64,000 nt of DNA from the NCBI RefSeq assembly GCF_009914755.1, contig NC_060931.1. One strand, 5' to 3'. Shown here in pieces: positions 24,690 through 27,202 of this stretch. The notes under the pieces are model-generated. The model worked only from the letters and a program-made list of their open reading frames with translations. It ran no database searches and had not been told where the DNA came from. The position numbers and the translations under genes were made by a program. The stretch comes from the human T2T-CHM13v2.0 reference genome, Homo sapiens. How positions within the stretch are numbered: position 1 is the first letter of the stretch; each line of letters starts with the position of its first letter.

Positions 24690-24829
24690 TGGATTTTTAA
24701 ATTAGCAGCCGTAGAAGGCATCATGCACTCTCTGGATCCAAGAGAGATGGTTTCTGTCGAGCAGACTTGGGTGGGTCACTCCTGGCAGCAGGGGCTCCCA
24801 GGGGAAGGTCTCTCACTGAGAGGTGTTCT
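24690..24829 (-). pseudogene. WAP: WAP pseudogene exon 4 (ENTSQ*, 3' UTR, degenerate polyA signal)
   Basis: tgcag|AG AAC ACC TCT CAG TGA (stop 24815-24813); GCTGCTAATTTAAAAATCC at the expected AATAAA position, followed by a GU-rich tract. Confidence 0.85.
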
Positions 24830-25456
24830 CTGCAGGGGGGCACGGGGAACTCAGATGCAGTACAGAGCCCGGCCAGGGGGGTGGTGGGGAGGAGGGAGGT
24901 CATCCGCTGTCCATTGTTCATGTGCTAATGTGTTCACGCCCACAGGCCCGGGGACCTGCGCTGCTGGCCCCTTTGCTGTTGTGCAGGGGAGCAAGCAGAG
25001 CCCTGCACCCCACTGGCTTTCCCCCAGCCCTCACCTCGCCTGCAGACAGGTGGATGAGGCCACCCTCATATGCCAGAAAGGGAGTCCAGGTCATAGGTGG
25101 GCTTGGACGGTTAGCCCAGAACCCATGTTTGGAACCCCTGACCTAGAGCTCTCCCAATATTTGGGAGGTAAGCTGCTCTCTGCAGTGAAGTGGGAGAGGC
25201 ACAGGCTTTGCACACAGGTCGAGCAGCACTGGGCCTGCCAGTCATTTGCCTCCCTGGGCCACTTTCACTCACTGACACTCACTCCCAGCCTGAGTGGCTT
25301 CCTTGAGTGCCTGGGGGCCTGCAGCTGGCATAGTCTGGGTTGGTGTGCCGAGCCCTATCTGCCCCCAGGGCCTGCTCATGGACTGCACCCACTTTCAAGG
25401 CCCCACTGAAGGCCCAAGCTGGCCAGGGGAAGCTCAGGGAGAAAGGGAACTCATAC

Positions 25457-25615
25457 CTAGGACAGGGGCCAGACACTTCATGGCACAGCGGCTGAAGCGG
25501 CACTTCTTTTCTCCCTAACACCCGCCGTCCATGGAGCACTCACTCTGCTCCTCGCAGAGCTCTGGGCTCACTGCAGGCTGCACCCAGGGGCAGCTGCCAA
25601 TCTTTGGGGCTGATA
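25457..25615 (-). pseudogene. WAP: WAP pseudogene exon 3 (second WFDC domain)
   Basis: cctag|TA ... CTAG|gtatga; 159 nt, phase 1-1; in-frame TAG 25517-25515; CC>CR at 25499-25497. Confidence 0.92.
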
Positions 25616-25736
25616 CTAGGGGAGAGATGGGCCAGCCCTTCATCACCCAAAGCCCTTTTATGCTTCCCAGCCTTGCTGGGCCCACCTCCCAGGGCTCCCC
25701 ATGCCAAAAATACCCATTTTATAAATGAGGAAGTTG

Positions 25737-26047
25737 GGCTGGGCGCTGTGGCTCATGCCTGTAATCCCAGCACTTTGGGAAGCCAAGGAAGGAGGATCAC
25801 AAGGTCAGCAGTTCGAGACCGGCCTGGCCAACATGGTGAAACCCTGTCTCTACTAAAAAAAAAAAACTACAAAAATTAGCTGGGTGTGGCAGATACTTGG
25901 GAGGCTGAGGCACAAGCATTGCTTGAACCTGGATGGTAGAGGTTGCAGTGAGCCGAGATCGCTCCACTGCACTCCAGCCTGGGCAGCACAGCGAGACTCA
26001 GTCTCAAAAACATAAAAAAAAATAAAAATAAATAAAATAAAAAATAA
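25737..26047 (+). mobile_element. AluS in WAP pseudogene intron 2
   Basis: TSD ATAAATG(A/G)GGAAGTTG at 25721-25736 and 26044-26059. Confidence 0.92.
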
Positions 26048-26376
26048 ATGGGGAAGTTGAGCCTCTGTTCTGCTCTGGGGTCAGATGTGTCCCCGGGGCC
26101 TCCTTTCTGCTGATCTCATGGCAGGAACCTCCACACCATCCTTGGAGGCTGGACCACAGGACAGAGGTGGATGAGGGTGGGTCAGCCTCAGGCAGGTTCC
26201 GGCAAATGAAGGGGGCTCACATGTAGGGCCGAGTGTGTGGGGCAGTTGTGTGGGCACTAAGAGGGTGGTCCCAAGTGTCCAGCTCAGGAAGATCCTTGAG
26301 AAAGCTGGTTCCTCCCTCCCCCAACAGATGGGAGCCAGGCTGTCACCATGGGGCACAGGGCCAGGTGGAGTATTAC

Positions 26377-26513
26377 CAATGGTGGGGTTTTGCAGGAGCG
26401 GCTGCAGGAGCTGGGGCAGCACTTGCTGTTGCCAAGACAGTCATTGTAGGTGAGGCAGGTTTTGACGCAGGGCACCTCCTCGGAGGAGCTGGCCTCGGGG
26501 CACACGGCCTGCT
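26377..26513 (-). pseudogene. WAP: WAP pseudogene exon 2 (first WFDC domain, 8 Cys)
   Basis: tgcag|AG ... ATTG|gtaata; 137 nt, one short of a symmetric phase 1-1 exon. Confidence 0.92.
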
Positions 26514-27062
26514 CTGCACACAGGATGGGCAGGTGAGTGGGGGTCCAGGCCCCATCCCCAGGCTCCTCAAGGGAAAGCAAGGTAGGGGCAATGAGGAACG
26601 CAGCCGTTAACAGCTTAACATGCTGTTTCTTAGAAGGCCAAAAAAATCTACCAGGAATGTGACAGCCTTGACAAAAGCATGGGAAGTCAGCTGAGAAAAT
26701 TAGGAAGCAAGACCACAGGCCCACTGCAGGTGGTGGGACGTTAAGACCCTGACCAGACTGGCTAGGGCCTGAGGATAGCCCCCATTCTCCGCTGCCACTT
26801 CCCCATCTCCCAGCTGCACTGCTCGCTCTCAGGCCCAGACGCTTCTCAGGCCCAGTGGGACAGCTGCCTCCACGTGGAAATACAGCCCTGCTTTTCTGCC
26901 ATCCCTGGACTCCCCACCACCCACCCCCAGGAGTGAGTCTCCTCTGTTTCTCTCTTCCCCATTCCTGTCGCCAAACCACCAGGACCTGTGGTGCCTTGGG
27001 TTCCACCAGAAGCAGAGATCAGGCAGGAGGACTCTCCTGGGAGTGTCCCCTAGAGAGGTTAC

Positions 27063-27144
27063 CTGGCGAAATGAATGCTGGGGCCACAGCAAGGGTCACT
27101 TTCAGGGCAAGCAGGGCCAGGGCCAGGCTGAAGAGACAGTGTAT
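27063..27144 (-). pseudogene. WAP: WAP pseudogene exon 1 coding part (signal peptide; start codon mutated to ATA)
   Basis: CCGCCACC-ATA-CAC; hydrophobic LFSLALALLAL; donor CCAG|gtaacc. Confidence 0.92.
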
Positions 27145-27195
27145 GGTGGCGGGTGGCAGGCAGGCGGCAGGTGGTGGCCTGAGGACATGGGTTAC

Positions 27196-27202
27196 ATTTA
27201 AA
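27196..27202 (-). promoter_or_regulatory. TTTAAAT TATA-box variant of the WAP promoter
   Basis: 52 nt upstream of the former start codon; TTTAAAT is the variant TATA typical of WAP/casein promoters. Confidence 0.8.

What the first reader, a model, noticed from the sequence alone, without database searches (positions are those of the whole stretch)
24690..27202. Complete fossil of the milk-protein gene WAP hidden between TBRG4 and RAMP3
Seen: four exons with all six GT/AG sites intact, encoding a signal peptide, two WFDC domains and a short tail. Five separate lesions: ATG>ATA (27144-27142), a 1-nt deficit at the end of exon 2, TAG in exon 3 (25517-25515), Cys>Arg (25499-25497) and loss of AATAAA (~24703-24694). 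Established: WAP is a major whey protein in rodents, rabbit, pig and camel, lies between TBRG4 and RAMP3, and is not made in humans. The loss is therefore known, but the locus is easy to miss and no single ORF shows it. So few lesions suggest a fairly recent loss within primates (inference).
Basis: partly seen in the sequence, partly recalled or inferred. Interest (0 to 1): 0.8.

Follow-up and report, generated by a model that had tools for sequence, protein, structure and literature searches.

The report
Human whey acidic protein (WAP) pseudogene
This is the broken leftover of the milk-protein gene WAP, sitting where intact WAP sits in other mammals; its loss in humans is already in print, so the finding is correct but not new.

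Summary
On the minus strand at 27144-24813 lie four exons of 82, 137, 159 and 17 nt, with all six GT/AG sites intact. Adding one base gives 396 nt, or 131 codons, the length of intact monkey and lemur WAP-like proteins. Exons 2 and 3 each pass the Pfam WAP cut-off.

It is WAP, not another WFDC gene:
- Pig WAP and squirrel-monkey WAP-like protein find their best human-genome matches here.
- The gene tree follows the species tree.
- Mouse Wap also lies between Tbrg4 and Ramp3 (PMC5520053).

Lesions confirmed: ATG>ATA, a 1-nt deletion near the end of exon 2, TGG>TAG and Cys>Arg. I add Asp>Tyr at a residue invariant in 19 of 19 orthologue rows. No AATAAA or ATTAAA follows the stop, but whether one was lost could not be tested.

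The "recent loss" inference is not supported. Three hard lesions in 396 nt fit roughly 20-40 My of neutral drift. Both catarrhine lineages also evolve faster than New World monkeys.

The loss is in print (PMC6350295, PMC6842137). Already known; low interest.

The parts
27196..27202 (-). TTTAAAT box 52 nt upstream of the former start codon; likely the TATA-like element of the WAP promoter
   Evidence: One search finds the motif. That WAP promoters use this variant box is recalled, not tested. The upstream 230 nt are collinear with the capuchin locus, as read through a capuchin isoform model (78 of 104 residues identical, one 1-codon gap).
27063..27144 (-). Exon 1 coding part: 27 codons plus 1 nt, giving a 19-residue signal peptide and 8 residues of mature protein. 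The start codon is mutated to ATA (27144-27142).
   Evidence: Met in 19 of 19 orthologue rows. The exon 1 content matches PMC6350295.
26514..27062 (-). Intron 1, GT...AG intact
26377..26513 (-). Exon 2: first four-disulfide-core (WFDC) domain, 137 nt, one short of a multiple of 3. All 8 Cys are kept.
   Evidence: PF00095 32.2 bits; 84% identity to vervet and squirrel-monkey WAP-like proteins
26446..26448 (-). TAC (Tyr) where all orthologues have Asp, the conserved Asp of the WFDC motif
   Evidence: Asp in 19 of 19 orthologue rows; invariant D50 in alignment A1
26382..26383 (-). Site of the inferred 1-nt deletion (CCAACC to CCACC) that shifts the frame before exon 3
   Evidence: Monkeys read T-P-T-I-V across the junction and human reads T-P-P-L. 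The exact base is inferred from protein only.
25616..26376 (-). Intron 2, GT...AG intact, holding an Alu-like repeat at about 25710-26054
   Evidence: The repeat span comes from the hub's mask table. The Alu identity is from reading the text (recalled consensus).
25457..25615 (-). Exon 3: second WFDC domain, 159 nt, phase 1 to 1
   Evidence: PF00095 30.9 bits with X at the stop; best human-genome hit of pig WAP (E 6.2e-13) and of squirrel-monkey WAP-like protein (E 1.5e-19)
25515..25517 (-). TAG stop where anthropoid orthologues have Trp (a TGG to TAG change is inferred)
25497..25499 (-). CGC (Arg) in place of the second Cys of the CC pair of the domain
   Evidence: Cys in 19 of 19 orthologue rows
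24830..25456 (-). Intron 3, GT...AG intact
24690..24829 (-). Exon 4: the last 5 codons (E split across the junction, then N-T-S-Q), TGA at 24815-24813, and 3' UTR down to a degenerate AATTTAAAAA at 24703-24694
   Evidence: The slow loris tail E-N-T-L-Q is close to it. The 3' end of the exon is not defined by any search.

Best explanation
The stretch is the human unitary pseudogene of WAP (whey acidic protein). It is the single, intron-containing orthologue of the milk whey protein gene of pig, hare, rodents and other mammals, and it sits in its ancestral place between TBRG4 and RAMP3.

It can no longer make the protein for these reasons:
- The start codon is ATA.
- One base is missing near the end of exon 2, which shifts the frame.
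- Exon 3 carries a TAG.
- One of the eight cysteines of domain 2 is Arg, and the invariant Asp of domain 1 is Tyr.

Shown: the anatomy, the lesions, orthology, and the absence of a second copy. Inferred: the locus has drifted without coding constraint for tens of millions of years, probably since about the catarrhine ancestor. The order of the lesions is unknown.
For: Structure:
- Four exons of 82, 137, 159 and 17 nt with six intact GT/AG sites. Adding 1 nt gives 396 nt, or 131 codons plus stop, equal to the 131-aa squirrel monkey, vervet and mouse lemur proteins.
- The plan matches the eutherian WAP plan described in PMC6350295, Background section read. Exon 1 encodes a 19-aa signal peptide plus 8-10 residues, two exons encode one 4-DSC domain each, and the last exon encodes 5-9 residues.

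Family:
- PF00095 scores above the cut-off on both middle exons.

Orthology:
- The exon 2 peptide finds only WAP or WAP-like proteins of primates at 69-86 bits, plus the locus's own spurious ORF at 87 bits (6 of 6 hits).
- Solved-structure WFDC paralogues (elafin, SLPI, omwaprin, anosmin) reach at most 20.4 bits.
- The in-script read-through is 82% identical to capuchin, 80% to squirrel monkey, 79% to vervet, 57% to hare WAP and 54% to pig WAP precursor.
- Squirrel-monkey WAP-like protein has 2 of 2 human-genome matches at E<=0.001 in this locus.
- Pig WAP's two best of 23 listed matches are here (6.2e-13 and 2.1e-4). The next match, on chr20, has E 0.007.
- In the ML tree, human groups with vervet (91/92) inside anthropoids (100/99), and the other clades follow mammalian orders.

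Synteny:
- The hub's gene table puts the locus between TBRG4 and RAMP3. Mouse Wap lies between Tbrg4 and Ramp3 (PMC5520053, passages read).

Print:
- PMC6350295 says WAP function was lost in ruminants and primates by frameshift.
- PMC6842137 lists Wap as lost or a pseudogene in human, bonobo, chimpanzee, gorilla, gibbon and capuchin.
Against: Nothing found argues against the identity. The caveats are these:
- No orthologous DNA could be fetched, so codon-level ancestry of each lesion (TGG to TAG, TGC to CGC, the deleted A, AATAAA) is inferred from proteins only.
- A whole-genome scan with the generic PF00095 model listed 19 matches at E<=0.001, none at this locus. The domains are therefore weak by the family model alone.
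- The dating rests on recalled branch divergences and a recalled indel rate.
- With the slow loris as outgroup the relative-rate tests are not significant (p 0.10-0.13).
- WAP evolves fast even where intact. The platyrrhine path carries 8-11 changes against 13-18 on the human path.
- The hare protein named WAP lacks canonical Cys at some positions, so a single Cys loss, as in vervet, does not prove inactivation.
Confidence: 0.97

Rival explanations
1. It is a relic or member of another WFDC gene (an SLPI, elafin or WFDC2-like paralogue) rather than WAP itself.
For: Both middle exons are generic PF00095 domains. Humans have many WFDC domains, mostly on chr20.
Against: Named WAP and WAP-like proteins score 69-86 bits on exon 2, against at most 20.4 bits for solved WFDC paralogues. 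Pig WAP's best human matches are here, ahead of chr20. The tree follows the species tree. Synteny with mouse Tbrg4-Wap-Ramp3 holds. The length of 131 codons is the same as in primate WAP-like proteins.
Confidence: 0.01
2. The locus still makes a protein, for example from a non-AUG start with an alternative splice that restores the frame.
For: All six splice sites and the TTTAAAT box are intact. The first domain keeps 8 of 8 Cys.
Against: The start is ATA, and the only upstream in-frame ATG lies 5' of the TTTAAAT box. The frameshift and the TAG would both have to be bypassed. Domain 2 has lost a Cys and domain 1 its invariant Asp. No human or ape WAP protein model appears among the 59 listed hits, apart from a spurious read-through ORF. 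The hub's RefSeq table has no gene here.
Confidence: 0.01
3. The dead gene's DNA has been taken over as a regulatory element (enhancer or non-coding transcript) for neighbouring genes. This reading is compatible with the pseudogene reading.
For: The hub's RefSeq table lists an enhancer at 24631-25456, which begins at the first base of intron 3 and covers exon 4. In mouse the Wap super-enhancer also acts on Ramp3, and a weak CTCF site lies in Wap intron 3 (PMC5520053, passages read).
Against: A CTCF-motif scan found 3 matches in the window, none in the locus, against 2.56 expected by chance. Enhancer calls from reporter screens often mark neutral DNA.
Confidence: 0.1

Closest known systems
Eutherian WAP gene (pig WAP precursor P0023; hare WAP P0021; mouse Wap in the Tbrg4-Wap-Ramp3 locus)
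   Same: Same neighbours, same four-exon plan, same two PF00095 domains and the same protein length class. Identity to pig and hare WAP is 54-57%, and 79-82% to anthropoid WAP-like proteins.
   Different: The human copy has no start codon, a frameshift, a stop, Cys>Arg and Asp>Tyr, and no canonical poly(A) hexamer.
Ruminant WAP pseudogene (Hajjoubi et al. 2006, Gene 370:104; seen only as a citation in PMC6350295 and PMC2688934; paper not read)
   Same: A unitary, intron-containing pseudogene of the same gene, disabled by a frameshift.
   Different: An independent loss in another order. From recall, the ruminant deletion is at the end of exon 1, whereas the human one is at the end of exon 2. 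Laurasiatherian relatives such as pig keep the gene.
Human chr20 WFDC genes (SLPI, elafin/PI3 and others)
   Same: They share the four-disulfide-core domain.
   Different: They lie at a different locus and show much weaker similarity: at most 20.4 bits to solved chains, and pig WAP hits chr20 only at E>=0.007. They are intact genes.

Membership tests
WAP orthologue group (eutherian whey acidic protein gene) | Lies between TBRG4 and RAMP3 | tested here: met
   The hub gene table puts TBRG4 at 901-12500 and RAMP3 from 58568. Mouse Wap is flanked by Tbrg4 and Ramp3 (PMC5520053).
WAP orthologue group (eutherian whey acidic protein gene) | Four exons: signal peptide plus 8-10 residues; 4-DSC domain I; 4-DSC domain II; last 5-9 residues plus 3' UTR | tested here: met
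   Exons of 82, 137, 159 and 17 nt encode 27 aa plus 1 nt, domain I, domain II and 5 residues. The plan is as stated in PMC6350295.
WAP orthologue group (eutherian whey acidic protein gene) | Two WAP-type four-disulfide-core domains (PF00095) | tested here: met
   32.2 and 30.9 bits against a cut-off of 20.8
WAP orthologue group (eutherian whey acidic protein gene) | Closer to named WAP proteins than to any other WFDC protein, in both directions | tested here: met
   hits named WAP or WAP-like; paralogues at most 20.4 bits; best human-genome matches of squirrel-monkey and pig WAP are this locus
WAP orthologue group (eutherian whey acidic protein gene) | Gene tree congruent with the species tree | tested here: met
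   Human with vervet 91/92, anthropoids 100/99. The gelada row was left out because its model reads introns.
WAP orthologue group (eutherian whey acidic protein gene) | Open reading frame with a start codon and 16 domain cysteines (needed for a working gene) | tested here: not met
   ATA start, frameshift, TAG, and 15 of 16 domain Cys. This failure is what makes it a pseudogene.
WAP orthologue group (eutherian whey acidic protein gene) | Expression in the lactating mammary gland | not testable with these tools
   No expression data are on hand.
Unitary (non-processed, unduplicated) pseudogene | Introns retained in ancestral positions | tested here: met
   Three GT-AG introns. Gelada, squirrel and hare models read into the same intron starts.
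Unitary (non-processed, unduplicated) pseudogene | No working copy elsewhere in the genome | tested here: met
   no other match better than E 0.007 in the whole assembly
Unitary (non-processed, unduplicated) pseudogene | Lesions fixed in the species rather than private to this assembly | not tested
   Only one human assembly was read. PMC6842137 reports the gene lost in human.

The most novel reading that the evidence does not exclude
Coding constraint on WAP was lifted at or near the base of the catarrhines, at least about 25 My ago, perhaps by a regulatory change that left the coding sequence intact at first. Each lineage has since collected its own damage.
- Human: ATA, frameshift, TAG, Cys>Arg, Asp>Tyr.
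- Vervet: Cys94>Trp.
- Gelada: Cys121>Arg, and a model that cannot be spliced normally.

On this reading the 'orthologue' reported in vervet is a gene in decay. New World monkeys and strepsirrhines keep an intact gene with 16 domain Cys and may still secrete WAP in milk.
Probability: 0.4. Interest if true: 0.35.

Novelty: already known. Interest (0 to 1): 0.2.

Why it matters
WAP is a standard example of variation in milk-protein gene content among mammals, and its promoter is a workhorse of mammary transgenesis. A base-level map of the human relic is useful for annotation, because the hub's RefSeq table shows no gene in this interval. It also helps date when primates dropped this whey protein. 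It changes no current view: the loss in primates is already stated in print.

Tried and rejected
- Supplements of PMC2864566 (unitary pseudogene catalogue): closed. Its main text has 0 mentions of Wap, whey or milk. Whether WAP is in its supplementary list stays open.
- Supplements of PMC6842137: 0 occurrences of Wap in the 2 files held.
- Phrase search 'WAP pseudogene': 0 papers. 'unitary pseudogene' with 'whey acidic': 0 papers. I found no open paper with a base-level description of the human relic. The primary source cited for the primate loss (Hajjoubi 2006) is not in the library and was not read.
- CTCF-motif scan: 3 matches in the window, none in the locus, 2.56 expected. Chance level.
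- Repeat scan of 24000-28500: only short, low-identity pairs. Nothing relevant.
- Genome-wide PF00095 scan: lists 19 WFDC exons but not this locus, so it neither helps nor harms the identification.
- PMC7210877: no positions of the mouse enhancers in the passages found. The GAS sites upstream of the human relic could therefore not be matched to them.
- Mapping lesions on a primate tree and codon-based dN/dS: not possible, because no collection on hand holds primate DNA. I substituted protein-level parsimony, relative-rate tests and a Poisson expectation.
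Full report
**1. What is in the sequence**

I read 27300-24600 on the minus strand and cut out the exons by script. The layout is as follows.
- A TTTAAAT box lies at 27202-27196.
- ATA lies at 27144-27142, followed by 26 further codons and one extra base up to 27063, then GT.
- AG is followed by a 137-nt exon (26513-26377), then GT.
- AG is followed by a 159-nt exon (25615-25457), then GT.
- AG is followed by 17 nt ending in TGA (24829-24813).

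All six splice dinucleotides are canonical, with pyrimidine-rich acceptors. I corrected my own first placement of the end of exon 1 by one base: it ends at 27063, with the donor at 27062-61.

The four pieces sum to 395 nt. One more base gives 396 nt, or 131 codons plus a stop. That is the length of the squirrel monkey, vervet and mouse lemur WAP-like proteins, all 131 aa.

**2. Is it more than chance**

Each middle exon, translated on its own, passes the curated Pfam cut-off for PF00095 (20.8 bits). Exon 2 scores 32.2 bits (E 1.3e-7). Exon 3, with X at its stop, scores 30.9 bits (E 3.4e-7). Exon 1 has no Pfam match, as expected for a signal peptide.

**3. Which gene**

The 45-residue exon 2 peptide was searched against longer proteins and gave 6 hits at E<=0.001 among 7 candidates.
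- One hit is a spurious read-through ORF of this same locus.
- Five are primate proteins: three named 'whey acidic protein-like' (squirrel monkey, capuchin, mouse lemur) and two named 'WAP domain-containing protein' (vervet, gelada). They score 69-86 bits at 78-88% identity.

A profile of 11 such proteins (A1) then found 59 proteins. These include the pig 'whey acidic protein precursor', hare and panda 'whey acidic protein', and WAP-like proteins of rodents, bats, carnivores, whales and a marsupial. No ape or human protein model is among them.

Solved WFDC paralogues (omwaprin, anosmin, elafin, SLPI, nawaprin) reach at most 20.4 bits.

In the opposite direction, squirrel-monkey WAP-like protein has exactly two matches at E<=0.001 in the whole human assembly: exon 3 (1.5e-19, one TAG inside) and exon 2 (1.1e-18) of this locus. 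Pig WAP's two best of 23 listed matches are the same two exons (6.2e-13 and 2.1e-4). The chr20 WFDC cluster starts only at E 0.007.

A read-through made inside a script, with X at the frameshift and at the stop, has the following identities.

| Orthologue | Identity |
|---|---|
| Capuchin | 82% |
| Squirrel monkey | 80% |
| Vervet | 79% |
| Mouse lemur | 67% |
| Hare WAP | 57% |
| Pig WAP | 54% |

An ML tree of 19 rows puts human with vervet (91/92) inside anthropoids (100/99). Strepsirrhines, Glires and Laurasiatheria form separate groups. The gelada row was left out because its model reads introns.

Position agrees as well. The hub table places the locus between TBRG4 and RAMP3, and mouse Wap lies between Tbrg4 and Ramp3 (PMC5520053, passages).

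The exon plan matches the published eutherian plan (PMC6350295, Background section read). That plan has exon 1 with a 19-aa signal peptide plus 8-10 residues, two exons with one 4-DSC domain each, and a last exon with 5-9 residues.

Three mis-spliced models (gelada, squirrel, hare) run into the intron text exactly where the human introns 2 and 3 begin. This shows the same boundaries in those species.

**4. The lesions**

All positions below were checked against the 19 orthologue rows.

| Lesion | Window position | Orthologue state |
|---|---|---|
| Met1 to Ile (ATA) | 27144-27142 | Met in 19 of 19 rows |
| One base missing, inferred from protein | about 26383/26382 | Monkeys read T-P-T-I-V; human text needs one more A in CCA-CC |
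| TAG | 25517-25515 | Trp in the 4 anthropoid rows, variable elsewhere |
| Cys113 to Arg (CGC) | 25499-25497 | Cys in 19 of 19 rows |

Domain 1 keeps 8 of 8 Cys and domain 2 keeps 7 of 8.

Downstream of the stop there is no AATAAA or ATTAAA within 812 nt, and AATTTAAAAA lies at 24703-24694. The absence is shown. That a hexamer was lost there is untested.

**5. How old is the loss**

No primate DNA is on hand, so I used proteins.

Parsimony with vervet and two platyrrhines gives the following counts.

| Branch | Changes |
|---|---|
| Human-specific | 9 (7 missense, 1 stop, 1 frameshift) |
| Vervet-specific | 15 (including Cys94>Trp) |
| Shared catarrhine | 4 |
| Shared platyrrhine | 5 |
| Squirrel monkey-specific | 5 |
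| Capuchin-specific | 3 |
| Ambiguous | 5 |

Relative-rate counts of unique changes:

| Comparison | Outgroup | Unique changes | Binomial p |
|---|---|---|---|
| Human vs squirrel monkey | Mouse lemur | 16 vs 4 | 0.012 |
| Human vs capuchin | Mouse lemur | 14 vs 2 | 0.004 |
| Vervet vs squirrel monkey | Mouse lemur | 18 vs 7 | 0.043 |

With a squirrel as outgroup p is 0.012-0.039. With the slow loris as outgroup the tests are not significant (p 0.096-0.134).

Tree path lengths from the anthropoid node are 0.18 for human and 0.28 for vervet, against 0.07 for each platyrrhine.

I then calculated a neutral expectation on the human coding text. The calculation found that 3.4% of substitutions make a stop and 71% are missense. 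The following inputs were recalled, not computed:
- human-branch divergences of 0.006 since chimpanzee, 0.03 since Old World monkeys and 0.045 since New World monkeys
- one indel per seven substitutions
- 85% of indels out of frame

| Time since | Expected hard lesions | Other results |
|---|---|---|
| Chimpanzee split | 0.46 | P(>=3) = 0.011; P = 0.077 if one lesion is set aside as the cause |
| Old World monkey split | 2.28 | 8.2 missense changes expected |
| New World monkey split | 3.42 | |

Observed are 3 hard lesions and 7 missense changes, plus up to 5 ambiguous.

The count is therefore what a 396-nt gene collects in roughly 20-40 My. It is not a sign of a young loss.

The caveats are that the numbers are small and the rates are recalled. 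WAP also evolves fast even where intact. The hare protein named WAP lacks some canonical Cys, so the vervet Cys loss is suggestive only.

PMC6842137 (passages) lists the gene as lost or pseudogenised in bonobo, chimpanzee, gorilla, gibbon and capuchin, and as present in vervet and squirrel monkey. The capuchin statement disagrees with the intact capuchin model seen here.

**6. Is it known**

It is known. [quoted passage not shown] 2006. I did not read the cited paper. PMC6842137 names human among the losers. PMC2688934 gives the bovine case.

I found no open paper with a base-level lesion map of the human relic:
- The phrase search 'WAP pseudogene' gave 0 papers.
- 'unitary pseudogene' with 'whey acidic' gave 0 papers.

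The hub's RefSeq table has no gene row in this interval.

**7. Verdict**

The identification as the WAP fossil is supported at about 0.97. One lesion is added (Asp50Tyr), one is left untested (the poly(A) signal), and the 'recent loss' inference is not supported. The finding is already known and of low interest. The only mildly new angle is the protein-level hint that relaxation goes back to about the catarrhine ancestor, and that the vervet and gelada copies are decaying too.

Noticed in passing
window 24631-25456: The RefSeq 'enhancer' of the hub table starts exactly at the first base of WAP intron 3 (25456) and covers intron 3, exon 4 and the 3' UTR of the dead gene. In mouse, a weak CTCF site is reported in Wap intron 3 (PMC5520053). 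No CTCF-like motif was found here.
   Followed up: partly
window 27791, 33904, 34418, 35701: STAT5-type GAS motifs (TTCNNNGAA) lie 0.65 kb, 6.8 kb, 7.3 kb and 8.6 kb upstream of the former start codon. Two of them lie next to the RefSeq enhancer at 34598-35098. There are 15 such motifs in the 64-kb window, so each alone is near chance. They may be remnants of the WAP super-enhancer known from mouse.
   Followed up: partly
window 25710-26054: Intron 2 of the relic (761 nt) holds an Alu-like element of about 345 nt, antisense to WAP. The span is from the hub's mask table and the identity is from reading against a recalled consensus. It is not a coding lesion.
   Followed up: no
window 27145-27381 (minus strand): A capuchin 'isoform X2' protein model (P0006, 225 aa) begins far upstream and in effect translates the WAP promoter. 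Its first part aligns to the translated human upstream DNA at 78 of 104 residues with one 1-codon gap. The proximal promoter, including the TTTAAAT box, is therefore collinear between human and capuchin, and that isoform model is probably an annotation artefact.
   Followed up: partly
proteins P0003 (vervet) and P0005 (gelada): The vervet WAP model has Trp in place of Cys94. The gelada model has Arg in place of Cys121 and reads through introns 2 and 3. Old World monkey copies may be pseudogenes annotated as genes.
   Followed up: partly
window 26284-27018 (minus strand): A 244-codon stop-to-stop frame runs through intron 1, exon 2 and into intron 2. A 231-aa protein predicted from this frame is present in public protein sets (P0002; 8 member sequences, 88 contigs). 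It is a spurious ORF that carries a real WFDC domain.
   Followed up: partly
human genome, chr20 about 46.8-47.5 Mb and others: A whole-genome PF00095 scan lists 19 WFDC exons at E<=0.001 but not the two chr7 exons. The relic is missed by the generic family model at genome scale and is found only with orthologue queries.
   Followed up: yes
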